This document shows positions 13,025 to 55,726 of a stretch of DNA of 64,000 nt, in pieces. Location of the stretch: the NCBI GenBank assembly GCA_000165345.1, contig CM000435.1, forward strand, positions 160,001 to 224,000, given 5' to 3'. The notes beneath the pieces are model-generated. The model saw only the letters and a list, made by a program, of their open reading frames with translations. It did no database searches and was not told where the DNA came from. The first letter of the stretch is position 1. Every line of letters begins with the position of its first letter. A program made the translations under genes and the position numbers.

Positions 13025-14167
13025 TTAAAAAAATAGTGAGCTTACCTTATTTCTGTCTTCAAATAAAATATATCCCTGCAACTTTTCAATGCTAGTTTTG
13101 AACTTTGAGCTAATAATAATGTGAATCGAAAAAAAAATTAATGGTGTGAATATTATAATCAGTAAAATTAAGGAAAATGTTTGAGTGGCATCCTCGGGAT
13201 TTAGTCGAAAATAGACATTCCCAAGAAGGTGACCAGAATTAGAGTTGTAGTGATGGTAGTAACAAAGATAATAGTGTGTAGTTGTTTGATGATTAACGGG
13301 AAATTTATAATCAAAATGACCATCTTTTAAATAACCATTTGATTTACTTGGACTCCATGAGTAAGTTTGTATGATATGACTTCCTTTGGGAGACAACTTT
13401 GTAGGCTGTAAAATCTTGAGAGACTCATCCTCCGGAAATCCCTGACATAGATAATCCTTCTTCAGAGAAACTATTGAAAATGCTGCTTTGCTTATTTGTA
13501 ATGAACTTGAAGAAAGCACAAACTCCAAGTTCCAACCAGGATTAACTAAAACTCTGACATCAACAATAAATCTATTGAAAGGATATATCTTTGGAATCTC
13601 CATATTATCTTTAAATATTTCAAATTTCCATCCACCAATATCATCTCCTGATACAGAAGGACTTAGAATTTTAAAATTCTCACTCTTTTTTTCTCCATTA
13701 CATAAACATGCTCTTGGAGAATTAAACAAATATTCTGATAATGTATTTCGAATTCCAGCAATGCTTCCTAGATTGAAAATCCTACAAATAGGCAAATCTT
13801 CATCAATAAATGATGGTATCCATTTATTTTCTGGCGTGAATTCCAAGTAGTCACAAACCTTTGCAACTCCTTGCTCGTCATTCATATACTTTTTGCAGTC
13901 GAAATCCCCACAGCTCACTCCCTTACCTATTATCAAACACTCTCCTCTTCTCTCTTCTTTACTCCTTTCCCACTCTAATCTCACATTCTCCTCCCATATA
14001 CGAACAATTAAATCCCCAGATCCATTTCCTACTGAAATGGGAATCACTCCAACTTTTGGATTCCTATATGGAAATAATACAGAACTTTCATCACCAGTTA
14101 TACCAAATACTCTCCCTACTAATAACGCAACATCTAACCAAATTACCCTTAAAACCCATAAATTCAT
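13025..14167 (-). CDS. Predicted type I membrane or secreted protein (N-terminal signal peptide, C-terminal TM helix), 380 aa, function unknown
   Basis: N-terminus MNLWVLRVIWLDVALLVGRVFG is signal-peptide-like. C-terminus LILLIIIFTPLIFFSIHIIISS is a hydrophobic helix followed by a short basic tail. E2F site TTGGCGCCAAA at 14205-14215 lies 40 bp upstream of the start. Confidence 0.5.
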   Translation of the reverse strand: MNLWVLRVIWLDVALLVGRVFGITGDESSVLFPYRNPKVGVIPISVGNGSGDLIVRIWEENVRLEWERSKEERRGECLIIGKGVSCGDFDCKKYMNDEQGVAKVCDYLEFTPENKWIPSFIDEDLPICRIFNLGSIAGIRNTLSEYLFNSPRACLCNGEKKSENFKILSPSVSGDDIGGWKFEIFKDNMEIPKIYPFNRFIVDVRVLVNPGWNLEFVLSSSSLQISKAAFSIVSLKKDYLCQGFPEDESLKILQPTKLSPKGSHIIQTYSWSPSKSNGYLKDGHFDYKFPVNHQTTTHYYLCYYHHYNSNSGHLLGNVYFRLNPEDATQTFSLILLIIIFTPLIFFSIHIIISSKFKTSIEKLQGYILFEDRNKVSSLFF

Positions 14168-15660: not shown

Positions 15661-15673
15661 TTTGGCGCCAAAA
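15661..15673. promoter_or_regulatory. Orphan E2F-like site TTTGGCGCCAAAA
   Basis: Lies in the ORF-poor stretch between 14168 and 16212, with no adjacent long ORF on either strand. Confidence 0.4.
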
Positions 15674-26666: not shown

Positions 26667-27002
<336 letters not shown>

Positions 27003-30185: not shown

Positions 30186-30681
30186 TCAAATTTATTTTTT
30201 TTTCTTATTCCAACTACAATCTTTCTCAGATAATTCGCTTCTAATATTTATAAGTATTTTATATGGGTTGATTTCAAAACAATCCTATTGATTTTTCATT
30301 ACCTATTGTTGATAAATAAATCGGTACCAGATAACTTGTTTATATTAACTTGAAATTATATCATTAATTTTTTAATTTATTTCGAATATATCTATTTTTT
30401 TTTTTGTCTTTTTGATTTATTTTTCTCTTAAAATCCATGCATCGCCGGTATGTAAAACTATTTTTCCCAATGCATGCAGATTTAATGTGGACGATTACGT
30501 GTCAAAATTTTTGTTAATAATTATTGGAGAGAAGAACGAATGTGTATGTAATTCATCAATGGAAATAAAAATTATTTGATTAATGTAGAAAATGAAAGAG
30601 GGTATGAAATAGTGATTTAATAACTAAAATTAAGTTTATAAATGTTTAAATATAGTAGAACTTATAACATTATATAAATTA

Positions 30682-38200: not shown

Positions 38201-39900
38201 AGAAGAATGAACATAATAAAGCTAAACATGAAAACCAATCTCAAGGAAAAAAATTGATCCCAAATTTCGCTGATATTCTAGATACGAGATTACTTAATTA
38301 CAAAAGAGGAAGATCTAATGCTCATAGTTCTATTCAACTCACTGAGAATATTGAAGTTTCTGATTATACTGCGGAACAACTTAAAAAAGATAAAGGAATG
38401 GTTTCAAAAAGCCAAACTGAAAGTTCGTTGTTAAGTTCTCCAAATTCGGGAGGGTCATATTTCTCAGAAAGCAAACTTCAACTAACTAATTCCGACTTTA
38501 CATCCTCAAGTTCTTCATCAGAATCTGAAACCAGCTCATCAGGGTCTGAATTAACCGTTTTCCCAATGGAAGCAAAACAAAATATTGGTCGAAAAAGTCG
38601 AAGATTTGTAATTAAATATTATGCGACTTTTCTTACAATGACTTCAACAAGAGTGATTATACTCATCCTAGCATCGATCTTCCTAGCTGTCTCAATCTAT
38701 TCTTCAATCAAGCTTAAAATGGGACTTGACTTAAAGGTTTTAGCTCCTCCAAGTTCCCAGGTTTACAAGTTTTATGTTAACCATGAGCAATTATTCAATA
38801 AGTACGGAGATGTCACATATATGATGTTTCAGGCTACACAAAAGTTAGGAGACAATAATAATAGTAATAACAATAACTGGTGGGAAGAATCATTTATTCG
38901 TGATTACAAAGAATTACAAACAAAGATACATGATTCTTGGTTTACCGAAATTAAACTTGATGGTATGGTTGCTTTCTATGATTCTTTATTAATTAAAGGA
39001 CTCCCAAAGAATTCTGTCGAATATTCAAAGATGCTTAAAGCATTTATTAGTTCCCCATACAATCGTCACTTTGAAGATGATTTTGTTTTTAATCAAAATA
39101 CTGGAGAATTAGAGGCTTGGAGGTCTGTATTGATTCCAATTTATCTTCCGGATACCTCTGTTAGAGGAAAGTATATGACTGATATAAGAAAGATTATGGG
39201 ATCTGTACCAGGAGTGAAAAATCCAATTGCTTACAGCCCCTTGTTTATATTTTATGAAAGTGACGTATCCATACTTCCTCAAACATTATATAATATGGGA
39301 TGTGCTTTAATTGCAGTTTTACTTGTAAGTTTCATATTTATTAATTATAAAAACAATTTATCTCATTAAATTTTAATCTTCAGGCTTCTTTAATATTAAT
39401 GCCAAGTATATCTTCAGTTATTATTGTTATTATTATTCTATGTATGGTGGATGTATGTATTATTGGAATGATGGCACAATGGGGGCTTCAGTTAAACATG
39501 CTTACAATGGTTAATTTGATTATGTCTATTGGTATTTCTGTTGATTATTCTACCCATATTTGCCATTGTTTTGCTCATTGTTCTGGTAAAGATAGAAATA
39601 CAAGAGTTATTGAGACTTTGGGTAAGTTTTAAGAAATGCAAATTATTACTATAAATATTACTAAATCTCTTTTTAACTTAAGGATTAATGGGAATTCCAA
39701 TTTTCCACGGTGCAATGTCAACTCAATTTGCAGTAACTGTATTGGCATTTTCAGATTCATATGTACTTCAGACATTCTACAAAATGATGACTTTGGTTGT
39801 TTGTATTGGAATTTGTTATGGAGCTATTATTCTTCCAGTTATTCTTACAGTTTTTGGTCCAATGGATGTTATTAAATACACTAAAGCTGAACATAAATAA
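35260..39900 (+). CDS. Patched/NPC1-family (RND-type) membrane protein with a sterol-sensing domain, 4 exons: join(35260..35647, 35723..39324, 39384..39621, 39683..39900)
   Basis: The SSD core is ...GVCGAIAALLAFIGGAGLCYLAGLEHTSTASAAPFLVLGVGMDDSFVVINSF... (GxDD motif). The C-terminal transporter half is ...MAQWGLQLNMLTMVNLIMSIGISVDYSTHICHCF... and ...GIPIFHGAMSTQFAVTVLAFSDSYVLQTFY...ILPVILTVFGP. Three GTAAGT donors (35648, 39325, 39622) and TAG/CAG/AAG acceptors (35722, 39383, 39682) join the four listed ORFs in frame; phases checked by codon counting. Confidence 0.65.
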
Positions 39901-40730: not shown

Positions 40731-43700
40731 ATGTCTACAGAGTTACAGAAACAGATAAATTTTCAGTTAAGAAACAATGAATTAACTTTCTTATCTCAGA
40801 GGGCTCTGAAAGTGAACAGAAACAAAAAAGAAAGAATTTCTTTTCTTTTTGATACTAGTAATACAGAATTTCATTCAAGAAAGGGACTTAAACCTGATAA
40901 TAGGATCCCAATTTATGAAGATCTTGGAAGATTAAGATACCTTGCTGAACAGGGACTCATGGAGTTAGAGTCTCTAAATCCAAGAATTTCTCATGAATCT
41001 TTTAATGAATTTTTTGAGAATACTGATGTTCCTTCAATTCAAATGTTGACAAAACAAGAAGCTGGTGAGATGTTAAGAAAGTTGGAAAGATTAATAGATT
41101 TTTTGGTACCTTATTTTCTATTGGAATCTGCAAAAATTTGCATAGAGTATTTAATTCAGGCTTATGATATCAATGTTTTATTGGGTGAATATCTTTTTTA
41201 CTCTTTTCTGCCCTACCACGATATGGCAGAATTTTGTCAATTAATTAGAACTTTGGATATACCAGAAAACAGTGAGATCAAAGGTTTGGTTGACTCAATT
41301 AAGACAACAAGAACCGTAATCACTTCTAGAAGTTATCTTTCTTCAATTTTAATCAGAAATCCAGCTTTGTTTAAGAATATTGTCATATTTTGGGAGAAAA
41401 GATTAGAAACATTTCAATTAACTAAGAATATACCATTAACTAACTTAATAACTTGGTTAGTTATTGAAATTATTGAGGACTTATCCAGATCTAAAGATTT
41501 AAAGAATCTTCATATTTTTCTTGAAAGTATTATTGAAATTATTATTTTTGGTACTTGTTTAAAAGGATCTCAATATGAAGAGTTAAGATCTACAGGATAT
41601 TGTATACTATATAAATTATCAACACCTCTTCTTTCTCTCTCAAATGAAACTCAGGTTAGAATTATTGATGAACTTTTCAAATCTATTTCAAGAAATCAAA
41701 CATATTCACCAAATTACCTTTCTGAGACAATTCTATTAATGAATCATATCTTAACTCAATTTGGAACTTTGACTCATTATGAATATTTAGATCATGAAAT
41801 ATCTGAATTTATTATAGAGAATCAAGCTATTTTTATCAGTGCTTTTAAACAATTATCAGAATGGGAAAGTGATTTTCTACAAATCCTTGCTTTGATTACT
41901 AAATCGATCATCAATTTTGGGGTTAATCAAGATCAAAGTTTTTCAAGACCTTGTCTTAACTTTTTTGAAAGTATCTTAAATTGTTTAGGGAATTCATCTT
42001 CCCTATTATTAATGGATGAAAGACAATCTAAAATGATTAAAGTTATTATTCTAAGCTTAATAGACGTTTACTCTCAAGATCAAATTCAAAATCCATTTTT
42101 TGGAAATATTATTAAAATTCTTCATACAAATTATCCATCTGAACTACTTTCTGCTCTCAGCTTTTCTTTAAATGTTTCTTCATCTCCACAATCACAATTA
42201 TTTGAACTTAAAGAAAAGGCTCAAATGTTTGTGGATATTGTTCTTAAAGAAGAAGAAGAAGCAAAAAGTGATTCTGGTATATTACAATCTAAAGAAGGAG
42301 AAAGTTCACGTATGTTCTTAACTTTACTAAATAGTCAAGACAAATCAGTATTAAATTCTTGTTTGGATATGATTATCAATTTGATAAAGAAATCTTCAAA
42401 GAATCCCAGTGAAATAACTCAATTTGAGAAGAGAGTATTTGAATTATCATTAAGACATTTCCTCGGTTCCTTTAATGATGAAAGTGGTAAACAAAATAAC
42501 TTTGGCGAGGAATATGCTTTAAAAATTTTAAGCTTACCTCAAACAATCGAAATTTCAAAATTTTTAGATCTTGAAGATATCCCGTCTCAAGATCAAGGCC
42601 ATCGTGATCTCCAAAAACAATGGAGAGTTAATTTGATTTTTAAGAGTTTTCTATTTTATTTTAAATCCAAAATAACATCAGGATATTCTACTCTTATAAA
42701 ATATTTTTCAAAAGAAATTTCATCCGAATTAAACTTGAAGGATCATCAAAATGGTAACTTTAATATTGAAGCTATGATTATGGAATCTACATTTTCTCAT
42801 ATATTTGGTCAAAATTTTGAGACAAATCTTATGGATTTATTTAAAAGTTTTTCTATTATTCTTGAAAATGATACTTTTGAGCTGAAGAATCAAATGAATA
42901 ATTTGGATGTAATTCTAATGGAGAATTCAGATATCTTTATTCCTCTATTCACCTTAATTTCACATGAAAATCTTTCATTTTCTCAAGATCTCAAAAAATC
43001 TTCAACTAGATTACTTGCTTTAATGTATAAGAATGATCAAATCAATACCTATTTTAAGCAAATCCTATTTAAATCAAGCGTAAACTGTTTGGAAATTTCT
43101 TTAATCTTATTATCACTGAAGAAGCTTAATTTAGATCTTAGATCTAGTTATCTCCTACCTAACCACTCATTTTCAAAGTTTGGAATTTATTTAAATAATG
43201 ATCAAGAAATTATCAGTCTATTGGAAACTTTATATTACAAATTTTACTATTATATCAGTTCCGCAATAAGACCACTCAAGAATGATAAAAAAATATCCAA
43301 TCAATTAGTTGGTATTTATATTTTAATTATATTCAGATCTACTTTACAAATTGTCTCATCTAGACGAGATCATTTCATTTTATATTATAAATTATTGAAT
43401 ATTTCCTTGGTGGATACTTTAGATATTGGAATTCTTTCAACAAATCATTTGGGATTACCATTGTTTCAAATGATTAATTCTTGTTTTGATTCTAATAATG
43501 AAAAAAAGAATAAAAAGATCTCAATTTTGGTTATCAATCTTACAAGGAACTTATTCAACATTTTGTCTCAAAGTGGGTCAGCATCATTTAATTTAGATTA
43601 TCTTAATAATGATCAATCATATTCAATATTTTATGGAAAGAATGTATATTTAGATACATTAATAAGTCATAGTTATTCTTTTCTGGAAATAATTACTTCA

Positions 43701-46700
43701 AAGTTACCAGTTCTACAAGATTCAAAGAATAATACATTTTCTGTCTCAAATTTACTTGAGATCTTATATAGTATTTTATCTTATGCAATTATTCCAGCTT
43801 TCTTAGATCAAAAATCTATATCTATAAAAATGGCATCTTTTAGGCTTTGTAAAGCAATACAAGATAAATTAAATCCAATTAATATCGAAAAAGTATTTGG
43901 GAATTCAAATTTGAAGTTTTCTGATATTTTATTAAGCTATAATAATTCTAATGATACCGGTACCGATTTTAATTATACAAATAATCATTTAAGATCATGT
44001 TATTTAAATAAATTTGGTCCAAAAATTCATCAAGTTTTAGAGGTTATTGATTCATTACTAAATCATCAATCTGAAGTTATTGTTGAAAATAATTTTCAAA
44101 ATCTTTTTGAAATTATTTTTAAAGATAATAATAAATCTATTAATATACCCGGTACCTTATTAATGTTAAATTTGGTAATGACCTTTGAAATGGCTTTTAC
44201 TAGTAAATTTATTCAAAAAATTGATTTAAATTATACACTTTTATCAGATTATGTGAGAAAGAACTTTATTTTTGGCAGTATTGATTCAAATTATCATGAG
44301 ATCTTGATAAATATTTCTAAAAGTTTCTTAATTAAAAATGAATATATCGATCATCATATTATTATTGGATTATCATTCTTAAAACAAGGGATCGATAATT
44401 TGGTTGATTATATTGATAAACAAGAACAAATTGATACAATAAAAGAACTAATACTCGAATATTTGAATGTTATTCAGAGATTTGAAAAAGAATTCCAATA
44501 TTTTGTTTTGATCAAAGAAAGTAATTTGGCTAAACAAGTTTTCTGTGAAATATTATTAACATTTTTAAATGAGAAGATTACCCAATATCTGAAAAGTGAT
44601 CATGAATTTGCTTCTTTTGTCGTTGGAATAATTTCTCAAATTATACAATATTCTCCAGAAAGCATTAAAAAAGTATCTTTATCTCAATATATTCAAAGTA
44701 AATCATTGGAAAGATTGGATCTTTTGATTTGTAGTTTATTGGAATATTGTTTAAAAGATGAACATTCTAAAAGATCAAATTCTAATTTCAAATTAAATAA
44801 TGATTCAGATACCGTATTTAATGAGCAAATAATCTTGGAATGGATTTATTGTGATTTGAATCTAGTTAATATTGAAATCTTGAATGATCAAAAAGAAGTT
44901 GAATATACATTTAATAAAGATCTTATTTGTCAAACTTTAAGATATTTAGAAATTAATAGAAATAGATTAAAAAGAAATCATCATGAAGAAATGGATCTTG
45001 ATATTCTATTTAAGACTGAGATTTACTTGATTAGAATATTAGATTTTGGAATTAAACTGAGATATACTCAATTTAAAGATTTAGAACCAATTTTGAATTA
45101 CTTTGAAATTACTGAAGAAACTAATAATAGAGTTGAAATCTCCAAGTTTATTTTAAATCCTATGATCATATCTTCAATTACAAGTCTTTTTTCAAGTATT
45201 AAAATAAAATCAAAGAATAAAGACTCAATGGATCACTCAAAATCATACTTTAAAATTTGTAAGATCTTATTTTCTATTTATATGAATTTGGCAAAAAATA
45301 CACATGGTGGTATCGATCAAAAGAATTATACAATAAAATCAACATTTTATTCTTTGAATCTATTTGTTAACCATAGCTTACAAGATTGTATATATTTTGA
45401 TCATTCTAGTAAAGAAAGAATGAAAGGTATCTTATTCAAGATCTTAATAAGTGAACAAATTAAAGAGATTGTTGAGACAAATAAATTTAATCAAATACAT
45501 GAGATACTTGATTTTATGGAGAAACTTCATAATGATGTTATTTATTGCCAAAACGTACATAGATTTAAAAAGAGTCAAGGAATTTTCATGATCATTAGAT
45601 ATTATCTAAATATGAACCAAGACTCTCAATCTGAAGATCTTGAACAATTAATTAAACATCTTTTGAAGAATCAATTATTTGATACAAGAACAAATGTTTA
45701 TAAGGATTTACTTCTTAATGTTCAAAATGAAATGGAAATTTTAATGAAATTTGAAGATCATGATCATAATAATCATGGATTTGAAACAAGAAAAGTTATT
45801 CTTGAGAATCTTATATTAATGACAAAAACTATCATTTATTTCTTAAATAAAACTTTATTAACTACAGAAATAAAATCAAATGAATCTCAAGATTTACTTG
45901 AATTATTTGATAGCTTAATTTTAATTAAAACTTTAATGAATAAAAAAATCTTAAAAAAACTCGGTACCGTACTAAAAAATAACGAGACAGATCTTGAAAT
46001 GAATGAAAAACTTAAATCCAGAATTGACAAATTAGAAAAAGAGTATTTAATCAATTCAATAGGATTGGATAAAGATTTTCAACATTATGATAATGAGGAA
46101 TATGTTATTAAGACTATTCAAAAAGATATTGATCAATTAATTCAAAGTATTATTGAAGATGATAGTATGAAGAAATATCTTATTGTTCATTGGGATTTAT
46201 CTAAAGATTCAGGTTTTGAAGTTTTAAAGAATTTAAGAAAAAGATTCTATTCTTTATTAATAAGTAATAAAATTGATTCTTTGGGTATTATTTTAAAAGA
46301 ATCTTTAGATAAGAAGCTTAAAATTTCTATAGATTTTAGATCTTCTTCAATTAATAATCATGATCAAGTAAAACAAGAATCTAATGTATTTAATACAATA
46401 CAATATCTTTTAGATATTATGATTTCTAGTAAAGAATTTAAAAATTCATTCAAATATAGATCAAAAACCCAAAAAGATCTTCATGTATTAGATGAGAGTA
46501 TGGATACTGGTACTGAATCAGAAAGTGAAGAAAATGAAAAAGAAGATTTGAGATCAAAGTTGAAGTTATGGATCAAAAATTGGTATATTATAGATTTAAT
46601 TCTCAAAGTTGTTAAAACACAAGGAGAAGAAAGACAAAAAGATCAATTTAATAAATTAATCTTTTCAAAAATTATGAGTTTCTATAATAGTCAAGAAAAT

Positions 46701-49061
46701 ATGCATGATGGATATGGAATAGTTTTCAAGATCCCATTAATACAGAATTTCTTATTAGAGAAGATTTCAAAATTAGAAAAGACTGATACTATAACTATCT
46801 TAAATGAAATACAAATTATTCTTGAAGATACAATACGTACAATCAAACTTTTAAATAGTAATTCAAATATTTTTGAATATATTCATATTCTAGAGGATAG
46901 AAAAGTCAAATCTATATTAATTTCTATGATAACTTCAAGTTACAAAGATTTAGATAATGATGAAAATGATGAATTTAAAACAAGAAAAGCTTTATTACTA
47001 CCTTATTTAGCTTTGTTAAATACATTACTAAGTTCAAATATTGGTTCAGTAATGATGAATGCAGAAACAAGAAAGGAGATCTTAATAAATGTATTATTAC
47101 ATGATAGTATGGTACCGTATTATGATCTTAATATATTAACAAATCTATTAAAGAGTGAAAGAACGAGAAAATCTAAATTTAATACAAGAAAAGAGAAATA
47201 TAAACAAGATAAATCTTTAGAAAATCATATTGAAGATTTAACAATGTTAGATAAAAATAAAAGTAATAGTAATCACAAATTGAATTTTTATTTGGAAGAA
47301 TTGGACAAAAATATTAACTCTTCATCTGGAATATTAATAGAAGGAGGTACTTTGGAGAATTATTTAGTAAGAATTCTCTTAATTTATTGTAATTTAACAA
47401 GTTCACCAACATCTCATTCTTATAATGAGGACTTTATTGGAGGATATAGTCAAGTACTTAAAGAGATTTCTTCAGAATTATTTTCAAAATTAAATTTAGA
47501 AGAAGGTACCGGTATTAAAAAGATATTAAAAGATCATGGAATAAATATATATTATTCAAAATTGACCAATTTAGTTTTAATTGTTTCATTTTCATTAAAT
47601 TTCATGGATGCTGGTAAATTGATTACAGAAAAGTCATTTATTGAAAGATTTTCTCAATTTTATCTTTTATTGGTGAATTTATTAATAATAAACTTCTCAA
47701 AATTACATTCAATTAAGGAGACAGAATTGAAAATGTTAGAAGAAGATTCTACAGATTCTAAGATTGGAAATAGTTTAGAAAAGTTATCAGGTAGAAAAAG
47801 AACAGAGGAGGAGAAAGATGATAATTATAATAGGAGAAATAATATGAAAAGTAATAATAATAATAGAGGAAAAGAGGAATCTTTGAATGGTTTTATTTCA
47901 AATATATTTGGAGTAGATGTATTATTATCCCATGGTTGTGTGAATCCAAAATGGTTTGATTTAGATATTAAAGATCTTAAGAAATTATCAAACTTAAAAT
48001 CGAATAATACATTTACAAATTTGAAGATCTGGAAATTAGAATCAAGTATTTCAACTTTAATATCAGTATTTGTATTAAAACTGAATGCAAAAAGATTAAG
48101 AGAATTTATATTATTAATAAAAAGATTGATTCATAGAAATGGTGAGAGTTTTCTTTCAAAAGTAAGTTCAATGACAAAGAAATCTGATGATTCAAAGACT
48201 GCAAGTAATTCTGATAAGAAGGCAATAAAAGATCTATATGAAGAGATTTCTTCTTCAGAAAGTTCAACATTAATTAAAGATATTTATTCTTGCAGAATTT
48301 GGATTTTAATTTTATTAGCAGTATTTGAATCAACAGGTGAATATGGTATATATTGTCTTATAGATGACGTGGCATTGGATGTGAAATCAATTTGTGATTT
48401 AACTCAAATGAATGCTTTAACATGCGTTCAGAATATTACAATATCTCAATATAGAAATATTCATAGTCCAAGTAAAAGATCACCAAATCATCAACAGATT
48501 GCTAATTTGAGTCATTTAGATAATGAGCTTGGTTGGTACTGGTACCATTTAGGTATATATAATTTAATATTAATAAAGATAATTTATTTAAATTTATCAG
48601 TACAAAATGAAGAATCAAAAGATGTACCAAATTCAATAGAAGATTATTTAGTAAATCCAATAGTTACAAATTTGGATATGTTTGCTTTATTTGAGCCAGG
48701 CTCAACTAAAAATTTAACAGGCTGTGGAAAACAATGGGATCTTATTTTGAGTGATATTTGGATTCATTCAATAAGATGTTTTAGAAGTAATGATTTAATA
48801 TTGGCTGGAATTATTAGATTATTGGTGAATAAAATAAGAAATGGTAATGATCAGGTTAGAATGTTCTCAGCAGAAGTTTTACTTAAGCTTTGGAAGGATG
48901 AAATATGTTCGATTACAATTTTGTCTCATTTATCAGATATTCTTCCTACAATTAAGGAACTTCTAAGTGACCATTCTGAGGAGATGATTAATATTACTAA
49001 ATCAATAGTCAAAAAGATTGAAGAAAGAACAGGAGAAGATATTTCCAAACAACTTTGCTAG
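40731..49061 (+). CDS. UTP10: U3 snoRNP / SSU processome protein UTP10 (HEATR1), 2776 aa
   Basis: N-terminal LERLIDFLVPYFLLESAKICIEYLIQAYDINVLLGEYLFYSFLPYHDMAEFCQLIRTL matches the HEATR1 N-terminal signature (…LSPYFLLKPAQKCLEWLIHRF…LPYHETRIFVRVIQLL). The C-terminal HEAT repeat …RMFSAEVLLKLW…ILPTIKELLSDHSEEMINITKSIVKKIEERTGEDISKQL matches the HEATR1 C-terminus (…ESIPFLAELMEDECEEVEHQCQKTIQQLETVLGEPLQSYF). Confidence 0.75.
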   Translation: MSTELQKQINFQLRNNELTFLSQRALKVNRNKKERISFLFDTSNTEFHSRKGLKPDNRIPIYEDLGRLRYLAEQGLMELESLNPRISHESFNEFFENTDVPSIQMLTKQEAGEMLRKLERLIDFLVPYFLLESAKICIEYLIQAYDINVLLGEYLFYSFLPYHDMAEFCQLIRTLDIPENSEIKGLVDSIKTTRTVITSRSYLSSILIRNPALFKNIVIFWEKRLETFQLTKNIPLTNLITWLVIEIIEDLSRSKDLKNLHIFLESIIEIIIFGTCLKGSQYEELRSTGYCILYKLSTPLLSLSNETQVRIIDELFKSISRNQTYSPNYLSETILLMNHILTQFGTLTHYEYLDHEISEFIIENQAIFISAFKQLSEWESDFLQILALITKSIINFGVNQDQSFSRPCLNFFESILNCLGNSSSLLLMDERQSKMIKVIILSLIDVYSQDQIQNPFFGNIIKILHTNYPSELLSALSFSLNVSSSPQSQLFELKEKAQMFVDIVLKEEEEAKSDSGILQSKEGESSRMFLTLLNSQDKSVLNSCLDMIINLIKKSSKNPSEITQFEKRVFELSLRHFLGSFNDESGKQNNFGEEYALKILSLPQTIEISKFLDLEDIPSQDQGHRDLQKQWRVNLIFKSFLFYFKSKITSGYSTLIKYFSKEISSELNLKDHQNGNFNIEAMIMESTFSHIFGQNFETNLMDLFKSFSIILENDTFELKNQMNNLDVILMENSDIFIPLFTLISHENLSFSQDLKKSSTRLLALMYKNDQINTYFKQILFKSSVNCLEISLILLSLKKLNLDLRSSYLLPNHSFSKFGIYLNNDQEIISLLETLYYKFYYYISSAIRPLKNDKKISNQLVGIYILIIFRSTLQIVSSRRDHFILYYKLLNISLVDTLDIGILSTNHLGLPLFQMINSCFDSNNEKKNKKISILVINLTRNLFNILSQSGSASFNLDYLNNDQSYSIFYGKNVYLDTLISHSYSFLEIITSKLPVLQDSKNNTFSVSNLLEILYSILSYAIIPAFLDQKSISIKMASFRLCKAIQDKLNPINIEKVFGNSNLKFSDILLSYNNSNDTGTDFNYTNNHLRSCYLNKFGPKIHQVLEVIDSLLNHQSEVIVENNFQNLFEIIFKDNNKSINIPGTLLMLNLVMTFEMAFTSKFIQKIDLNYTLLSDYVRKNFIFGSIDSNYHEILINISKSFLIKNEYIDHHIIIGLSFLKQGIDNLVDYIDKQEQIDTIKELILEYLNVIQRFEKEFQYFVLIKESNLAKQVFCEILLTFLNEKITQYLKSDHEFASFVVGIISQIIQYSPESIKKVSLSQYIQSKSLERLDLLICSLLEYCLKDEHSKRSNSNFKLNNDSDTVFNEQIILEWIYCDLNLVNIEILNDQKEVEYTFNKDLICQTLRYLEINRNRLKRNHHEEMDLDILFKTEIYLIRILDFGIKLRYTQFKDLEPILNYFEITEETNNRVEISKFILNPMIISSITSLFSSIKIKSKNKDSMDHSKSYFKICKILFSIYMNLAKNTHGGIDQKNYTIKSTFYSLNLFVNHSLQDCIYFDHSSKERMKGILFKILISEQIKEIVETNKFNQIHEILDFMEKLHNDVIYCQNVHRFKKSQGIFMIIRYYLNMNQDSQSEDLEQLIKHLLKNQLFDTRTNVYKDLLLNVQNEMEILMKFEDHDHNNHGFETRKVILENLILMTKTIIYFLNKTLLTTEIKSNESQDLLELFDSLILIKTLMNKKILKKLGTVLKNNETDLEMNEKLKSRIDKLEKEYLINSIGLDKDFQHYDNEEYVIKTIQKDIDQLIQSIIEDDSMKKYLIVHWDLSKDSGFEVLKNLRKRFYSLLISNKIDSLGIILKESLDKKLKISIDFRSSSINNHDQVKQESNVFNTIQYLLDIMISSKEFKNSFKYRSKTQKDLHVLDESMDTGTESESEENEKEDLRSKLKLWIKNWYIIDLILKVVKTQGEERQKDQFNKLIFSKIMSFYNSQENMHDGYGIVFKIPLIQNFLLEKISKLEKTDTITILNEIQIILEDTIRTIKLLNSNSNIFEYIHILEDRKVKSILISMITSSYKDLDNDENDEFKTRKALLLPYLALLNTLLSSNIGSVMMNAETRKEILINVLLHDSMVPYYDLNILTNLLKSERTRKSKFNTRKEKYKQDKSLENHIEDLTMLDKNKSNSNHKLNFYLEELDKNINSSSGILIEGGTLENYLVRILLIYCNLTSSPTSHSYNEDFIGGYSQVLKEISSELFSKLNLEEGTGIKKILKDHGINIYYSKLTNLVLIVSFSLNFMDAGKLITEKSFIERFSQFYLLLVNLLIINFSKLHSIKETELKMLEEDSTDSKIGNSLEKLSGRKRTEEEKDDNYNRRNNMKSNNNNRGKEESLNGFISNIFGVDVLLSHGCVNPKWFDLDIKDLKKLSNLKSNNTFTNLKIWKLESSISTLISVFVLKLNAKRLREFILLIKRLIHRNGESFLSKVSSMTKKSDDSKTASNSDKKAIKDLYEEISSSESSTLIKDIYSCRIWILILLAVFESTGEYGIYCLIDDVALDVKSICDLTQMNALTCVQNITISQYRNIHSPSKRSPNHQQIANLSHLDNELGWYWYHLGIYNLILIKIIYLNLSVQNEESKDVPNSIEDYLVNPIVTNLDMFALFEPGSTKNLTGCGKQWDLILSDIWIHSIRCFRSNDLILAGIIRLLVNKIRNGNDQVRMFSAEVLLKLWKDEICSITILSHLSDILPTIKELLSDHSEEMINITKSIVKKIEERTGEDISKQLC

Positions 49062-49106
49062 TAAATTATTAATAGAGAAAAAAAAGAGGTACCTAAATGA
49101 GCCTTC

Positions 49107-49155
49107 ATGCATGCATGCGTATGAATATGCATGCATGCATACCGTGACACGTAAT
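49107..49155. promoter_or_regulatory. Dense GCATGC cluster (CATGCATGCATGCGTATGAATATGCATGCATGCAT) plus GTGACACGTAAT, located in a convergent 3' spacer
   Basis: Five overlapping GCATGC boxes within 34 bp. The reverse complement of the following 10-mer is TTACGTGTCA, identical to 30496-30505. Both flanking genes end here. Confidence 0.4.
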
Positions 49156-49416
49156 TGTATATAAACATAAAATTTAGATTTTCTATCCATTATTTCCGTG
49201 TTTATTATTTATTTGTTGATTTGATTTGATTTTTTGTTCTCTTACTAATTAATTAAAGTAAAAGTTTTGATGATTAGGGCGAAATGAGTGTAATTATAAT
49301 TCGTTCATAATGGCGGAATGATGGAAAGAGCAGTAAAGATATATTGTGGTTGGATGATGCGGTAAATATAATTTAGATGATAAAGAATAGAATAAGTTAA
49401 TTCAAATATTACAAAA

Positions 49417-50211
49417 TTAATTTGCCCTTTCCACTGCTTTAATAACTTCCTTTGCATTTTCCGACCATTTTCTGAATGTTTCAATAGCATCAGTAATAAA
49501 GCTATTAGAAGTCTCATCAGCATCTTTAAGTTGTTTATCAACTTGGGAAATCTGTGTTTGAAGTTCATGGAACTCTTTTGTAAGTTGATCCAGATTTGTT
49601 CTAAGCTTGGAATTTAATTCTAATAGAAATTTCTCCTCTTCAACAATAATAAGTGATTTAGCTTTTTCAACCACAGGAACCAATCTATCAACCATTAAAC
49701 ACTCTTCCTTATCTTTTTGAGTATGTATTCTAGCAAGATCAGCAGCTGATAGCTTATATACTTCCTGTCCAAGCTCTTCAACTAAAGCTAATCTCTCATC
49801 CACAATATCTAACTTATATTGAATCTTGAATTTTTCTGAATTTATACGAAAAATTTCAATCAATTTGAGTTTGAGCTCGTGTAAAAAGCACTTATATTTG
49901 CTCATAATATCCATATAGACATCATTTGGAAGATCTCCAAATGGCCGAATGATATCTGTCAGTGATGGAATACTTGAAACTACTCCAACCAATTCTTTTT
50001 CCCCCTTCTTGCTATCATTTTCATTCTCTCCAAATCTCCATTTACTTCCCCATTCTGTATCGCTATCCTTATTCCTATTCAATTTACTTTCTCCAGTTAC
50101 CTGGATTGTGTTAGCATCTTTATTTTCATCAATAATAAAACCTTTCGTCTTCCCAATCCATTGATTGAGAATTTGATGATATCTCGAAGCTTTCATTTTT
50201 TCTTGTCTCAC
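49417..50211 (-). CDS. Hypothetical coiled-coil protein, 264 aa
   Basis: Clean ORF. The C-terminal half is heptad-rich (…LKLKLIEIFRINSEKFKIQYKLDIVDERLALVEELGQEVYKLSAADLARIH…LQTQISQVDKQLKDAD…). GCATGCATGC and GTGGCGCC at 50545-50566 lie upstream of the start. Confidence 0.45.
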   Translation of the reverse strand: MRQEKMKASRYHQILNQWIGKTKGFIIDENKDANTIQVTGESKLNRNKDSDTEWGSKWRFGENENDSKKGEKELVGVVSSIPSLTDIIRPFGDLPNDVYMDIMSKYKCFLHELKLKLIEIFRINSEKFKIQYKLDIVDERLALVEELGQEVYKLSAADLARIHTQKDKEECLMVDRLVPVVEKAKSLIIVEEEKFLLELNSKLRTNLDQLTKEFHELQTQISQVDKQLKDADETSNSFITDAIETFRKWSENAKEVIKAVERAN

Positions 50212-50639
50212 ATTAATCTTTAATTTATTCTAAAATAATTAAATCTCATGAGAAAGAAATCTTTACCAATATAATATTACTAAACCCCACCCCAACAGCT
50301 TCCGCTTCCTCTTTTCTTAAGCCCTTTGTACCGAATCTCACTTATGAAAGAACACAGTAAAAAAAAATGCAACTTTTTTTCAATAGCAAAAATCTTTGCC
50401 AAGTTCACCGTCCTTTATCCGCTCTATTCTCCAATTCCTCCACCCTTAAATTCAAAAAAAAAAAAAATCAACAATGCTTTCTAAAAAATTATACTTATGG
50501 GGGCTCAAGAAAAGCCCGCCCTAAAACATACCGGCTCCCCACATTGCATGCATGCTTGTGGCGCCTGTTTGCTTGCAATGACTAACTATAAAAGCGTAAA
50601 ACGGTTTTAAGGTTTAAAAAAGGAGAATCAGAGTTCTCA

Positions 50640-52400
50640 CTATTTTTTAGGTTTCTGTTTCTGTTTTTGGCGGTGATTGCTCTGTCTGGAAGATGCTACA
50701 GCTGCAGCAGATGCCTCAAGTGTTGGGAGCCCAGGAATAACATACTCATTCTTGGGCTTTTGTTGTACATTAACAACAGTTGGGACATTATTGGAATCTC
50801 TAGCAGCTCTCATCCTCTCAGCGAATCCACTACTTGCCCATTTTGGTCTGTAGATTTGTTTTTCTGGCTGAGGTTTTGAGTTAAATTCCCTTCCAGGAGA
50901 AACTGATCTATATTTCACTGAGCGTCTATAATCAGCAGTCTTTGGAGACCAATAAGCTGAGTAAAGTGTGTCGAAGTTGACTCTTTTAAGCAAATCACCA
51001 TTATATCTAAAGATCCGAATCGCATTATCTACTCTAAGTCTGGGAGAGGTAGTAGAAGCCAGTAGAAACCTTCCACAAACTGACCATTCAAGAGTAATAC
51101 AACAAGAAGCATTAGTTTGGCCAATAAGCTTCTGTTTATCAAGATCCCAAATATCTAGATCTCCTGCAAGGTTTCCAAACCCTCCATATGCAAACCATTT
51201 TCCTGAAGGGTTCCATCTAATTGTATTTCTTCTGGATTTCCCAAAGCTAACTTTAGGAGAGCCATCAATCCCACTATTCAAAGTCAGCTCTGGAGGAATA
51301 ATTCCCTTACATAAGAGAAATTCATTGGATTTTGGAGACCAAGCAACATCATTCACAGGACCTTCTTCTGGTGGAACAACCACTTGATGTCTTAGACTCA
51401 GCTTCTCTGAGGGTTTAAAACCATCGCTTCCATTTTTATTTCCATTTTCAAGATCATTATTTCCTCCTTTATTTCCTTTCCAAGCACTATTTGCCACAAC
51501 AGTCTTAGAGTTTTGAATTCGAAGTAGATGCAGACTTGAAGATCCAAAATAAGATTTTCCCAAAGTTTCACCTTCAATTTGAGCAAACACTAAAATACTA
51601 TCCCCTGAGTTATTCCAAGAAACTTGACATGTTTGAGCTTCTTTTACACAAACTTGTCCAATTGAGCTAAGCTGGATCTCTTTTTTGCTGTCCATCTCTG
51701 CATGGTATACATATACATCCATATTTTGTGCAGATTGGGGAGTTACTACTGTAAAGTTCAAGCTACTCAATTTAGATCCTTCTTCTCCTAAATCACTTCC
51801 TCCATCAATCTCGTTAGAAACTGAAAGTTGTATACTTTTTGAGAAATTTAAAGTTCCTATAGGATTTTCCAGGCTTTCAGTATCGCTTTTAAATATTGAT
51901 ACACTGGTATCTTGGACTTTAAATACAAAGATCTCATTATTACTCCATCTATATGGAGGCCAAGTACTAAGAACTTTTGCACTGTTTGTTTTAAAAGGAA
52001 AAGAAAACAGTAATTTTACATTTTCCTTCAGTTTGTAAACTTGTAGGTTATTTTCATTCTTTCCTTGTTCAAATACTGTTAAAACCAATAAATAACTTCC
52101 TAATGGTGAATATTGCAACTTTCTAACTGGGAAATCATTCTCTATCTTAAGCTCCTTATTAACTTCACCTTCTCCTTTTGTTATTAAAATCACAGAATTC
52201 TTTGAATCCTTTGGTACAAAACAGTATCCTCTTCCTTGGGGTTCTTGGGCATAAATTTCAACACCTTCCAAAAATGGAATTGGATTGTTAACTGTTAATT
52301 CTTCAGAATTTACGTCATTCTTTGTCATTCCTCTAAGCCTATATACTCCTCCTTTTCCCAAACACACTATCTCGTCGTCATATTCCACCGCTCTAGACAT
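50640..52400 (-). CDS. EIF2A: Eukaryotic translation initiation factor 2A (eIF2A, beta-propeller), 586 aa
   Basis: …PVNDVAWSPKSNEFLLCKGIIPPELTLN…NTIRWNPSGKWFAYGGFGNLAGDLDIWDLDKQKLIGQ…FLLASTTSPRLRVDNAIRIFRYNGDLL parallels the eIF2A block GPIHDVAWSP…FGNLRGQMEVWDVKNYKLI…LTATCAPRLRVNNGYKIWHYTGS. A basic C-terminal tail is present. Confidence 0.7.
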   Translation of the reverse strand: MSRAVEYDDEIVCLGKGGVYRLRGMTKNDVNSEELTVNNPIPFLEGVEIYAQEPQGRGYCFVPKDSKNSVILITKGEGEVNKELKIENDFPVRKLQYSPLGSYLLVLTVFEQGKNENNLQVYKLKENVKLLFSFPFKTNSAKVLSTWPPYRWSNNEIFVFKVQDTSVSIFKSDTESLENPIGTLNFSKSIQLSVSNEIDGGSDLGEEGSKLSSLNFTVVTPQSAQNMDVYVYHAEMDSKKEIQLSSIGQVCVKEAQTCQVSWNNSGDSILVFAQIEGETLGKSYFGSSSLHLLRIQNSKTVVANSAWKGNKGGNNDLENGNKNGSDGFKPSEKLSLRHQVVVPPEEGPVNDVAWSPKSNEFLLCKGIIPPELTLNSGIDGSPKVSFGKSRRNTIRWNPSGKWFAYGGFGNLAGDLDIWDLDKQKLIGQTNASCCITLEWSVCGRFLLASTTSPRLRVDNAIRIFRYNGDLLKRVNFDTLYSAYWSPKTADYRRSVKYRSVSPGREFNSKPQPEKQIYRPKWASSGFAERMRAARDSNNVPTVVNVQQKPKNEYVIPGLPTLEASAAAVASSRQSNHRQKQKQKPKK

Positions 52401-55577: not shown

Positions 55578-55726
55578 TTTAATTTAAAAAAAAAGAAATT
55601 GGATTTATAATAGGCGCCAAATTCCACTAAAGATTTTGCATGCATGCATTTTTATATATATTATAGATACCCACTTATATAGTAGAAAAAAAAATTTAGA
55701 CAAATTAAAGTTTTATATATTTATGA

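What the first reader, a model, noticed from the sequence alone, without database searches (positions are those of the whole stretch)
49062..49416. Promoter-type GCATGC cluster sitting between two convergent gene ends (possible unannotated antisense or ncRNA promoter)
The UTP10 ORF ends at 49061 (+) and the coiled-coil ORF ends at 49417 (-), so this 355-bp spacer should be pure 3' sequence. It nevertheless contains the densest GCATGC array in the window (five overlapping boxes, 49107-49140) followed by GTGACACGTAAT. GCATGC is otherwise an upstream element. The element may drive an antisense transcript, as reported to be abundant in this genus, or a small RNA. Alternatively GCATGC has a 3'-end role here.
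Basis: partly seen in the sequence, partly recalled or inferred. Interest (0 to 1): 0.5.

Follow-up and report, generated by a model that had tools for sequence, protein, structure and literature searches.

The report
Conserved GCATGC cluster between convergent genes
A tight group of known transcription-factor binding sites sits in the short gap between the ends of two Cryptosporidium parvum genes and is kept in related species, so it is probably a real regulatory element of a kind already described in this parasite, most likely a promoter for antisense RNA, although no transcript from it is on record.

Summary
The window is C. parvum chromosome 7. The 355-bp spacer lies between the stops of UTP10/HEATR1 (cgd7_860, +) and cgd7_870 (-). 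It holds an interrupted (CATG)n tract at 49106-49140 with four exact GCATGC boxes, not five, as two GCATGCATGC decamers. This is the densest array in the window. The tract sits at the same place in seven Cryptosporidium species with 2-5 boxes, one box in C. xiaoi, and none in C. canis, C. felis or C. ryanae. A more conserved block follows it: ATACCG, ACACGTAAT, TATATAAA, TTTAGAT. The same short motifs occur in real promoters of the window. 1.4 kb away, the same decamer lies 10-19 bp upstream of the 5' end of a published antisense lncRNA, Cp_lnc_301. All three convergent spacers of the window carry boxes. The second one keeps its cluster in C. ubiquitum through a different repeat.

I found no Rfam match, no conserved RNA structure and no conserved ORF. 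The 2021 lncRNA catalogue lists no transcript here. My best reading is a conserved ApiAP2 (AP2_1) site cluster acting as a 3'-end, antisense or bidirectional, promoter. That makes it a new member of a known kind. The direction and the transcript itself are unproven. A role in termination or as a boundary is the main rival.

The parts
40731..49061 (+). UTP10/HEATR1 gene (cgd7_860; NCBI tag CPATCC_003242), left convergent gene; stop TAG at 49059-49061
   Evidence: ORF list; exact protein match and source names
49106..49140 (.). Interrupted (CATG)n tract with four GCATGC boxes (49109, 49113, 49129, 49133), that is two GCATGCATGC decamers and three full TGCATGCA octamers; a homotypic cluster of AP2_1 / ApiAP2 sites
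   Evidence: motif definition in PMC3734150 and PMC4117751; positional conservation in 7 species
49107..49140 (.). 15-bp inverted repeat (arms 49107-49121 and 49126-49140, loop TGAA), an automatic consequence of the palindromic unit; as RNA -22.9 kcal/mol, z = -3.75
   Evidence: stability is not conserved in orthologues (-10.1 to -18.9 kcal/mol, z = -0.2 to -3.4)
49139..49155 (+). ATACCG (49139-49144) plus GTGACACGTAAT (49144-49155). These are half-palindrome motifs that recur beside GCATGC boxes elsewhere: ATACCGGTAT at about 18821, GCCGGTATG at about 30446 and about 50520, ACACGTAAT at about 23735 and 30494-30504
   Evidence: conserved as ACCGT-n-ACACGTAAT in 6 species
49158..49183 (+). TATATAAACATAAAATTTAGATTTTC, the most conserved stretch of the spacer. 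It reads as a TATA-like box followed by TTTAGAT on the + strand. Alternatively it is the cleavage region and downstream U/GU-rich element of the cgd7_870 mRNA on the - strand
   Evidence: block 49139-49195 is 80-81% identical to C. ubiquitum and chipmunk genotype I, against 62-66% at four-fold sites; interpretation is inference
49201..49213 (-). Two AATAAA hexamers on the - strand (49201-49206, 49208-49213), candidate poly(A) signals of cgd7_870, about 200 nt after its stop
   Evidence: sequence; Cryptosporidium signal A(A/G)TAAA as cited in PMC11761812; function inferred
49257..49262 (+). AGTAAA on the + strand, candidate poly(A) signal of UTP10 (not conserved in C. meleagridis or chipmunk genotype I)
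   Evidence: inference
49417..50196 (-). cgd7_870 (259-aa coiled-coil protein, CPATCC_003243), right convergent gene
50546..50565 (.). Comparator: GCATGCATGC (50546-50555) plus GGCGCC (50560-50565) in the cgd7_870 promoter, 85-94 bp beyond the eIF2A stop
   Evidence: strongly conserved module in 7 species
50565..52250 (+). Comparator: published antisense lncRNA Cp_lnc_301 (antisense to eIF2A, cgd7_880). Its 5' end abuts the decamer, which the authors list as ApiAP2 motif at -19. Expression correlates with cgd7_870 at r = 0.85
   Evidence: PMC7840661, supplementary files 1 and 3
55613..55670 (.). Second convergent spacer (55578-55726): GGCGCC, GCATGCATGC (55638-55647), then TTTTATATATATTATAGAT
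   Evidence: in C. ubiquitum it is replaced by a (TGCATGTC)n array with 3 GCATGC boxes, followed by TTTATATACAATTTAGAT
30446..30504 (.). Third convergent spacer (30186-30681): CATGCAT, GCCGGTATG, GCATGC (30472), and ATTACGTGTCA (30494-30504), which is the reverse complement of the focal TGACACGTAAT

Best explanation
The tract is a conserved homotypic cluster of ApiAP2 binding sites (AP2_1 motif, TGCATGCA). It is embedded in a small composite cis-regulatory module: ATACCG, ACACGTAAT and a TATA-like box. It works at the DNA level. TGCAT-binding AP2 proteins (four are known in vitro: cgd2_3490, cgd1_3520, cgd5_4250, cgd8_3230) occupy the repeated palindromic sites.

Because both flanking genes end here, the most likely output is non-coding transcription started from a '3'-end promoter'. 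That would be an RNA antisense to cgd7_870 (rightwards), antisense to the UTP10 3' end (leftwards), or both.

Shown: the element exists, it is enriched beyond chance, it is conserved in position and motif content, it is non-coding, and it resembles neighbouring real promoters, including one that abuts a published antisense lncRNA.

Inferred: protein binding, transcription from the site, and its direction.
For: (1) Motif identity. The sequence matches [T/C]GCATGC[A/G] / BGCATGCAH, bound by cgd2_3490 and three other C. parvum AP2 domains on protein-binding microarrays (PMC3734150; PMC4117751).

(2) Enrichment. There are 20 GCATGC against about 4 expected in the window, ten-fold denser in spacers than elsewhere.

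(3) Conservation. Clusters of 2-5 overlapping boxes lie 15-48 bp after the UTP10 stop in C. parvum, C. hominis, C. meleagridis, chipmunk genotype I, C. ubiquitum and two unnamed species from Logan assemblies. Four-fold sites of cgd7_870 are only 62-66% identical between C. parvum and C. ubiquitum or chipmunk genotype I, whereas the adjoining block 49139-49195 is 80-81% identical. The spacer is identical in six C. parvum assemblies.

(4) What is kept is the motif and its multiplicity, not the exact tract or the hairpin. Copy number differs between species, and hairpin energy ranges from -22.9 to -10.1 kcal/mol with z-scores from -3.75 to -0.2.

(5) The real cgd7_870 promoter shows the same style of conserved module: GGCGCC, CATGCATGCA, TGTGGGG, GCCGGTATG and a TATA-like GTATAAT.

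(6) Local precedent. Cp_lnc_301 starts at 50565, directly beside GCATGCATGC. The authors list it with an ApiAP2 motif at -19.

(7) General precedent. Antisense lncRNAs start at 3' ends of sense CDSs, and AP2_1 is the second most enriched motif upstream of them.

(8) The second convergent spacer keeps a GCATGC/TGCATG cluster in C. ubiquitum through a different repeat unit, which is motif turnover with the cluster retained.

(9) Species lacking the cluster (C. canis, C. felis, C. ryanae) have much shorter spacers, 119-203 bp against 264-355 bp.
Against: No transcript is known to start here.
- The position-sorted 396-lncRNA catalogue of Li et al. jumps from Cp_lnc_326 (window 26624-27057) to Cp_lnc_301 (50565-52250).
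- Six 23-26-mers from the spacer and both flanks, searched on both strands, are absent from it.
- The stored FASTA copy was truncated, and the pipeline was conservative about read-through, so this is weak negative evidence.

ATAC-seq in sporozoites found no AP2 motifs in open chromatin (PMC11761812).

Direction cues conflict.
- The TATA-like box and ACACGTAA orientation point rightwards. ACACGTAA reads in the sense direction in two tandem promoters.
- The geometry of Cp_lnc_301 (stop, TSS, boxes) points leftwards.

The element is not genus-wide: it is absent in C. canis, C. felis and C. ryanae.

The 62-nt block is unique. An nhmmer search finds only itself, and the other spacers score E >= 0.8, so no shared 'module family' is demonstrated.
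Confidence: 0.45

Rival explanations
1. Boundary or termination element. Proteins bound to the GCATGC array, or the DNA/RNA hairpin it can form, stop or help to stop polymerases arriving from one or both convergent genes. The adjoining conserved block would be the poly(A) cleavage region of cgd7_870 and/or UTP10. Any antisense initiation would be secondary.
For: All three convergent spacers of the window carry boxes and no divergent spacer does.

All four GCATGCATGC decamers lie 48-94 bp from a stop codon. In C. ubiquitum, all 10 GCATGC boxes of 20.8 kb lie 43-97 bp from a stop codon, and 8 of them are in the two convergent spacers.

The - strand AATAAA hexamers at 49201-49213 would place the cgd7_870 cleavage site in the conserved TTTAGATTTTC region, just before the array. 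A - strand A(A/G)TAAA is read by eye 10-45 nt to the right of the block in most of the aligned species.

In Theileria parva, a self-complementary motif is enriched in tail-to-tail spacers at transcript ends. A promoter motif recurs at termination sites, and the authors propose a dual role for it (PMC4761415).
Against: Most gene 3' flanks in the window have no GCATGC or TATATA..TAGAT signal, so this is not a general 3'-end signal.

A(A/G)TAAA occurs easily by chance in this AT-rich DNA.

In tandem spacers, closeness to a stop codon is equally explained by promoters being packed against the upstream gene.

No termination data exist for Cryptosporidium (stated in PMC11761812). The sample here is three spacers.
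Confidence: 0.2
2. Orientation-independent regulatory element of a neighbouring protein-coding gene, for example a downstream element for the 780-bp cgd7_870 or for UTP10. It would be placed in the only free non-coding DNA nearby and would have no transcript of its own.
For: The conservation and motif vocabulary are those of real promoters. The genome is extremely compact, with a mean intergenic distance of 504 bp (PMC7840661). No transcript is catalogued from the spacer.
Against: Downstream enhancers have not been described in Cryptosporidium in the papers read here. cgd7_870 already has a full conserved promoter module with its own GCATGCATGC. The TATA-like box next to the array suggests a core promoter.
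Confidence: 0.15
3. RNA element. The tract lies in the UTP10 3' UTR and acts as a stable hairpin, or as a (U)GCAUG protein-binding site, that controls mRNA stability, localisation or 3' processing.
For: The tract starts 48 nt after the UTP10 stop, and that distance is fairly constant between species. It forms a 15-bp hairpin of -22.9 kcal/mol, z = -3.75.
Against: The hairpin follows automatically from a palindromic repeat. Its strength is not conserved: C. hominis z = -0.64 and the SRR31860986 species z = -0.22. No compensatory changes can be scored. Both strands fold equally well. Identical decamers elsewhere lie in a promoter.
Confidence: 0.08
4. A neutral (CATG)n microsatellite with no function, persisting through replication slippage.
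For: Tandem Repeats Finder calls a period-4 array, and copy number differs between species.
Against: It is retained at the orthologous position in seven species whose four-fold sites are down to 62% identical. It is invariant in six C. parvum assemblies. The flanking non-repetitive block is even better conserved. GCATGC is five-fold over-represented in the window and confined mainly to spacers.
Confidence: 0.07
5. The spacer hides a small structured RNA gene (snoRNA, snRNA or similar) or a small protein gene, and the array is its promoter.
For: The TATA-like box lies 20 bp from the array. There are C-box-like TGATGA strings at about 49270 and 49355-49385.
Against: There are no tRNAs. There is no Rfam match at gathering thresholds, and at E <= 10 only hairpin-type chance matches on the array itself. 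The RNAalifold consensus over 49185-49416 is -0.47 kcal/mol with essentially no covariation. No CUGA D box follows the C-box-like strings. The longest ORFs are 24-62 aa and are frame-shifted between C. parvum and C. hominis by the 4-nt difference in tract length.
Confidence: 0.03

Closest known systems
AP2_1 motif (5'-TGCATGCA-3' / BGCATGCAH), the ApiAP2 binding site of Cryptosporidium parvum (Oberstaller et al. 2013, PMC3734150; Oberstaller et al. 2014, PMC4117751)
   Same: The sequence is exactly the same. It lies in non-coding DNA, it is over-represented, and it sits alongside E2F-like, G-box and other motifs in conserved modules.
   Different: The motif was described as an element upstream of co-expressed protein-coding genes. 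Here no protein-coding gene lies downstream on either strand, and the sites form an unusually dense homotypic array (4 boxes, 3 full octamers).
Promoters of C. parvum antisense lncRNAs (Li et al. 2021, PMC7840661), for example Cp_lnc_301 in this window
   Same: The element lies just beyond the stop codon of a sense gene. An AP2_1 motif lies within 100 bp of where an antisense RNA would start. Cp_lnc_301 has GCATGCATGC at -19 to -10 and starts 75 bp past the eIF2A stop.
   Different: Cp_lnc_301 shares a bidirectional promoter with a protein-coding gene, cgd7_870. The focal array has no protein-coding partner, and no lncRNA is catalogued there.
Motifs at transcript ends in tail-to-tail spacers of Theileria parva (Tretina et al. 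2016, PMC4761415)
   Same: Both are compact apicomplexan genomes with self-complementary motifs in 3'3' spacers. In Theileria a promoter motif recurs at termination sites, and a dual termination and antisense-initiation role was proposed.
   Different: The organism and the motif sequence differ: the Theileria motif is AT-rich and is not GCATGC. No transcript-end data were available here.
Roadblock termination by DNA-bound factors such as yeast Reb1 (from my own knowledge, not checked in the library)
   Same: The concept is the same: a sequence-specific DNA-binding protein between closely spaced transcription units halts polymerase and also organises a nucleosome-free promoter.
   Different: This is purely an analogy. 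Nothing of the kind has been shown in Cryptosporidium, and nothing was tested here.

Membership tests
AP2_1 / TGCATGCA ApiAP2 binding-site motif | Sequence matches [T/C]GCATGC[A/G] (BGCATGCAH) | tested here: met
   Four GCATGC boxes and three TGCATGCA octamers in 49106-49140; motif definition
AP2_1 / TGCATGCA ApiAP2 binding-site motif | Over-represented in, and largely confined to, non-coding DNA | tested here: met
   20 observed against 3.98 expected; 15 of 20 in spacers
AP2_1 / TGCATGCA ApiAP2 binding-site motif | Lies upstream of a protein-coding gene whose expression it accompanies | tested here: not met
   Both neighbours end at the spacer, and there is no conserved ORF downstream on either strand
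AP2_1 / TGCATGCA ApiAP2 binding-site motif | Occupied by a TGCAT-binding AP2 protein in the parasite | not testable with these tools
   Only in-vitro microarray binding is published. Sporozoite ATAC-seq peaks lacked AP2 motifs
C. parvum antisense-lncRNA promoter (Li et al. 2021) | Located at or just beyond the 3' end of the sense CDS | tested here: met
   48 bp after the UTP10 stop and 277-308 bp after the cgd7_870 stop
C. parvum antisense-lncRNA promoter (Li et al. 2021) | E2F/DP1 or ApiAP2 motif within 100 bp upstream of a mapped lncRNA 5' end | tested here: not met
   The motif is present, but no lncRNA is catalogued. The sorted FASTA and table go from Cp_lnc_326 to Cp_lnc_301, and sequence probes were negative.
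C. parvum antisense-lncRNA promoter (Li et al. 2021) | A stage-regulated transcript is detectable by stranded RNA-seq | not testable with these tools
   No read-level data are available. All contigs found that carry the locus are genomic
Structured non-coding RNA gene | Match to a curated RNA family | tested here: not met
   No hits at gathering thresholds. At E <= 10 there are only sub-threshold miRNA-type hairpin hits on the array, and no tRNA
Structured non-coding RNA gene | Conserved secondary structure with covariation | tested here: not met
   RNAalifold on six species, 49185-49416: -0.47 kcal/mol, covariation term +0.03
Neutral microsatellite | Tandem short unit | tested here: met
   Tandem Repeats Finder: period 4, 8.8 copies, 74% matches
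Neutral microsatellite | Length polymorphism within species and no positional conservation beyond close relatives | tested here: not met
   Identical in six C. parvum assemblies. Present at the orthologous site in seven species with four-fold-site identity down to 62%
3'-end formation / termination element | Coincides with mapped transcript 3' ends and occurs generally downstream of genes | tested here: inconclusive
   Boxes lie 43-97 bp from stop codons in many cases, but most 3' flanks lack them. No 3'-end maps were available

The most novel reading that the evidence does not exclude
Clusters of the AP2_1 site may be a conserved punctuation mark of tail-to-tail gene boundaries in intestinal Cryptosporidium species. 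Bound ApiAP2 proteins would both block polymerases converging from the two genes and launch antisense RNAs back into them. The same motif would then serve as terminator and promoter. The pattern in this window fits that idea: 3 of 3 convergent spacers carry boxes, 0 of 3 divergent spacers do, and both testable clusters are retained in C. ubiquitum.
Probability: 0.15. Interest if true: 0.6.

Novelty: new member of a known kind. Interest (0 to 1): 0.3.

Why it matters
Gene regulation in Cryptosporidium is poorly understood. About 10% of its genes have antisense RNAs of unknown function, and nothing is known about how transcription stops in a genome with roughly 500-bp spacers. A conserved, unusually dense ApiAP2-site array with no protein-coding gene downstream is a clean natural test case. 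Mutating it by CRISPR would show whether such arrays drive antisense RNA, insulate convergent genes, or both. If the convergent-spacer pattern holds genome-wide, it would change how 'upstream' motifs are assigned to target genes in this parasite and related ones. If it does not, this is simply one more antisense-type promoter of a kind already published.

Tried and rejected
(1) I first took Cp_lnc_1 (CryptoDB CPATCC_0032423) to be antisense to UTP10, because the NCBI tag of UTP10 is CPATCC_003242. That was wrong. Its listed upstream motif and the neighbouring Cp_lnc_131 are absent from the window, so CryptoDB and NCBI numbering differ. The correct CryptoDB IDs here are CPATCC_0006610 (cgd7_870) and CPATCC_0006620 (eIF2A).

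(2) The missing NCBI tag CPATCC_003244 looked like a possible RNA gene in the spacer. It is better explained as Cp_lnc_301, which starts at 50565.

(3) Small structured RNA: rejected.

(4) Small protein gene: the 36-62-aa ORFs across the array are frame-shifted between C. parvum and C. hominis.

(5) PUF-site idea (UGUAUAUA at 49156-49163): the UGUA is not conserved in chipmunk genotype I, C. ubiquitum or the SRR18693150 species.

(6) Intron idea (5' splice site ACAC|GTAATT, branch point TACTAAT at about 49243): the branch-like site is not conserved in C. ubiquitum or the SRR18693150 species, and no ORF would be joined.

(7) General poly(A)-signal idea for TATATA..TAGAT: it is not seen downstream of most genes.

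(8) Repeated-module idea: nhmmer with the conserved block finds only itself.

(9) I looked for transcript-derived contigs among the assemblies that carry cgd7_870. All of them are genomic and at least 5 kb long.

(10) Two exact-pattern scans of JGI metagenome contigs for the block found nothing.

(11) Supplements of the small-RNA paper, the T2T paper and the polycistron/ATAC paper are not held as text.
Full report
**Identity of the locus**

The window is Cryptosporidium parvum chromosome 7.
- The three proteins around the finding match C. parvum entries exactly. They are HEATR1/UTP10 (cgd7_860, CPATCC_003242; 40731..49061 +), a 259-aa coiled-coil protein (cgd7_870, CPATCC_003243; 49417..50196 -) and eIF2A (cgd7_880; 50640..52400 -).
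- A 20.8-kb stretch of CP141124.1 matches the window without a mismatch.
- G+C content is about 30%.

**The observation**

The two genes do converge on a 355-bp spacer. None of four independent C. parvum annotations places a protein gene in it.

The spacer contains TCATGCATGCATGCGTATGAATATGCATGCATGCATA at 49105-49141.
- It holds four exact GCATGC boxes (49109, 49113, 49129, 49133), not five.
- They are arranged as two GCATGCATGC decamers.
- Tandem Repeats Finder reads the whole as an interrupted (CATG)8.8 tract.
- It is also a near-perfect 15-bp inverted repeat.

GCATGC occurs 20 times in the window against 3.98 +/- 2.18 in shuffles. Its density is 1.0 per kb in spacers and 0.10 per kb elsewhere. 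The focal array is the densest in the window.

**Where the boxes sit in this window**

I used the long ORFs as gene models; the ones that matter were checked against annotation. Ten intergenic clusters of boxes fall as follows:
- seven in head-to-tail spacers;
- three in the three convergent spacers (30186-30681, 49062-49416, 55578-55726);
- none in the three divergent spacers.

By spacer length, three of ten clusters falling in 1,000 bp of convergent spacer has P about 0.025. By spacer count, P is about 0.11.

All four GCATGCATGC decamers lie 48-94 bp from a stop codon. This includes the decamer that belongs to a real promoter.

**Conservation**

The cgd7_870 protein has relatives only in Cryptosporidium. 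I fetched the orthologous loci of ten other species or isolates. Synteny (eIF2A, cgd7_870, then UTP10 convergent) is kept in all of them.

| Species or sample | GCATGC boxes in the spacer | Spacer length (bp) |
|---|---|---|
| C. parvum (window) | 4 | 355 |
| C. hominis | 3 | 350 |
| C. meleagridis | 5 | 310 |
| chipmunk genotype I | 2 | 311 |
| C. ubiquitum | 5 | 310 |
| Logan SRR18693150 | 3 | 294 |
| Logan SRR31860986 | 2 | 264 |
| C. xiaoi | 1 (a single TGCATGCA) | 348 |
| C. canis | 0 | 119 |
| C. felis | 0 | 203 |
| C. ryanae | 0 | 172 |

In the first seven rows the (GCAT)n tract always lies 15-48 bp after the UTP10 stop.

Immediately after the tract comes the best-conserved part of the spacer. 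Its consensus is ATACCGT-n-ACACGTAATTnTATATAAACATAAAATTTAGATTTT.
- Four-fold degenerate sites of cgd7_870 are 62% identical between C. parvum and C. ubiquitum, and 66% between C. parvum and chipmunk genotype I.
- The block 49139-49195 is 80-81% identical in the same comparisons.
- By eye, the 30-nt core shows only about two substitutions against C. ubiquitum.
- The spacer is identical in six C. parvum assemblies.

What is conserved is the presence of several overlapping boxes, not the exact tract. Copy number changes between species, and the predicted hairpin ranges from -22.9 kcal/mol (z = -3.75) in C. parvum to about -10 kcal/mol (z = -0.2 to -2.2) in others. This argues for selection on DNA motifs. 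It argues against selection on an RNA stem and against a neutral microsatellite.

**Comparison with a real promoter 1.4 kb away**

The cgd7_870 / eIF2A spacer aligns across the same seven species as a strongly conserved module. It contains GGCGCC, CATGCATGCA, TGTGGGG, GCCGGTATG, GGGCGGG and CCCCCATAAGTATAAT.

The lncRNA catalogue of Li et al. 2021 contains Cp_lnc_301(+). Its sequence starts at window 50565 and runs to 52250, antisense to eIF2A.
- The authors' own table lists GCATGCATGCA at -19 and an E2F-type site at -51 for it.
- Its expression correlates with cgd7_870 at r = 0.85.

So in this very window a GCATGCATGC decamer lying 85-94 bp beyond a stop codon is part of a bidirectional promoter that launches an antisense RNA. 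The paper states the general version: antisense RNAs start at the 3' ends of sense CDSs, and AP2_1 is the second most enriched upstream motif.

**Shared motif vocabulary**

The short motifs flanking the focal array recur next to GCATGC boxes elsewhere in the window.
- ATACCGGTAT (a palindrome) lies beside the box at 18838.
- GCCGGTATG occurs in the 30-kb convergent spacer and in the cgd7_870 promoter.
- The 11-mer TGACACGTAAT recurs as its reverse complement at 30494-30504, in the 30-kb convergent spacer.
- ACACGTAA(T/G) occurs in the promoters of the genes 19181..23545(-) and 1011..4730(-), in both cases reading in the gene's sense direction.
- ACACGTGT occurs twice near 59240-59270.

An nhmmer profile of the 62-nt block finds only itself. 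The other spacers score E >= 0.8. The similarity is therefore one of vocabulary, not of a repeated element.

**The second convergent spacer**

In C. parvum it reads GGCGCC, GCATGCATGC, TTTTATATATATTATAGAT. In C. ubiquitum the orthologous 168-bp spacer has a different repeat, (TGCATGTC)n, ending in GCATGCATGC and followed by TTTATATACAATTTAGAT.

In the 20.8 kb of C. ubiquitum examined, 8 of the 10 GCATGC boxes lie in the two convergent spacers. All 10 lie 43-97 bp from a stop codon. Keeping a cluster while the sequence turns over is typical of functional binding-site clusters.

**What it is not**
- It is not a tRNA.
- It has no Rfam family at gathering thresholds. At E <= 10, the hits on the array itself are sub-threshold microRNA-type hairpin matches, as expected for any palindrome.
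- There is no conserved secondary structure in 49185-49416.
- Whole-spacer folds are unremarkable, z = -1.6 and -1.9.
- The ORFs across the array (24-62 aa) are frame-shifted between C. parvum and C. hominis.

**Is there a transcript?**

This is the weak point.
- The 2021 catalogue appears sorted by position, judged from the five entries I mapped or could not place in the window. In that order it goes from Cp_lnc_326 (26624-27057) directly to Cp_lnc_301.
- In the expression table, the CryptoDB IDs go from 0006543 to 0006623.
- Probes from the spacer and both flanks on both strands are absent.

That catalogue is conservative, and its pipeline had trouble separating independent transcripts from read-through. 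The later T2T annotation has 766 lncRNAs, but I could not read it.

ATAC-seq peaks in sporozoites lacked AP2 motifs. AP2_1 sites, if active, would therefore act at other stages.

**Mechanism and direction**

I take the array to be a DNA-level cluster of ApiAP2 sites. Four C. parvum AP2 domains bind TGCAT-type motifs in vitro, and at least one of them is expressed at each stage surveyed.

The cues for direction conflict.
- Rightward transcription, antisense to cgd7_870, is favoured by two features. The first is the TATA-like box TATATAAA (49158-49165) about 20 bp to the right, followed by the conserved TTTAGAT. The second is the orientation of ACACGTAA.
- Leftward transcription, antisense to the UTP10 3' end, is favoured by analogy with Cp_lnc_301, whose order is stop codon, TSS, then boxes.
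- Bidirectional output is plausible, because the box is palindromic and more than half of ATAC-seq regulatory peaks were annotated as bidirectional.

**Main rival**

The conserved block may be 3'-end machinery rather than a core promoter. The - strand carries two AATAAA hexamers at 49201-49213. These would put the cgd7_870 cleavage site inside TTTAGATTTTC, with the U/GU-rich TTTTATGTTTATATA downstream and the array just beyond. That is where a roadblock would be useful.

Theileria parva offers a published parallel. There, self-complementary motifs mark transcript ends in tail-to-tail spacers, and a promoter motif recurs at termination sites.

Against this rival, most gene 3' flanks in the window show nothing similar.

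**Verdict**

The element is real, statistically unusual and under constraint. Its components and its most likely function are already described for this organism, so it is a new member of a known kind. The unresolved point is whether AP2_1 clusters have a special relationship with convergent gene ends. That question is worth a genome-wide test, but 64 kb cannot establish it.

Noticed in passing
window 50460-50640 and 50565-52250: The cgd7_870 promoter is a module of E2F, AP2_1, G-box and GCCGGTATG sites conserved in seven species. It doubles as the start region of the published antisense lncRNA Cp_lnc_301, whose 5' end is at 50565. The unused NCBI tag CPATCC_003244 is probably this lncRNA.
   Followed up: yes
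window 55578-55726; L017 about 4684-4851: The second convergent spacer (149 bp) carries GGCGCC plus GCATGCATGC plus a TATA-rich run. In C. ubiquitum the orthologous spacer has a (TGCATGTC)n array with three GCATGC boxes instead, so the cluster is retained while the sequence turns over.
   Followed up: partly
window 30446-30504: The third convergent spacer has CATGCAT, GCCGGTATG, GCATGC and ATTACGTGTCA. The last is the exact reverse complement of the 11-mer TGACACGTAAT next to the focal array. No orthologues were fetched for this spacer.
   Followed up: no
window 18821-18843, 23730-23743, 5133-5143, 59240-59270: Motifs recur beside GCATGC boxes that are not in the AP2/E2F lists I read. One is an ACCGG-core palindrome (ATACCGGTAT), which resembles 'motif 4' upstream of lncRNAs in Li et al. 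The other is an ACGT-core motif (ACACGTAAT / ACACGTGT). The factors that bind them are unknown.
   Followed up: partly
window tandem spacers: boxes at 5118, 34928/34987, 50546, 57569, 59213: In head-to-tail spacers, GCATGC tends to lie 331-388 bp upstream of the next ATG (5 of 8 boxes). Two of them lie only 83-94 bp after the previous stop codon. The boxes therefore hug the upstream gene's 3' end rather than the downstream start codon.
   Followed up: partly
window 35848-39900: ORF 35848..39369 is not the whole gene. Annotations of the Patched/sterol-sensing protein (1291-1481 aa) end at window 39900, which implies an intron or frame change near 39370. Logan gene calls split the tail into 70-aa and 77-aa pieces.
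   Followed up: no
window 57652-59063: Phosphoglycerate kinase has two competing models: 393 aa from the ATG at 58833, and 419 aa with an upstream exon starting at 59063. In the longer model, the GCATGC at 59213 is only 150 bp upstream of the start.
   Followed up: no
window 14168-16212 and 26624-27057: There is a 2-kb stretch without any ORF of at least 90 aa but with three E2F-like sites. Separately, the published lncRNA Cp_lnc_326 lies antisense to the small acidic GAT/GAA-repeat ORF 26667..27002. Another catalogued + strand lncRNA covers at least 13090-14173, antisense to the gene 13025..14167.
   Followed up: no
L006, L007, L008 (C. canis, C. felis, C. ryanae): Species without the GCATGC array have much shorter UTP10/cgd7_870 spacers (119-203 bp) than species with the array (264-355 bp). 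C. xiaoi has a single TGCATGCA in a 348-bp spacer.
   Followed up: partly
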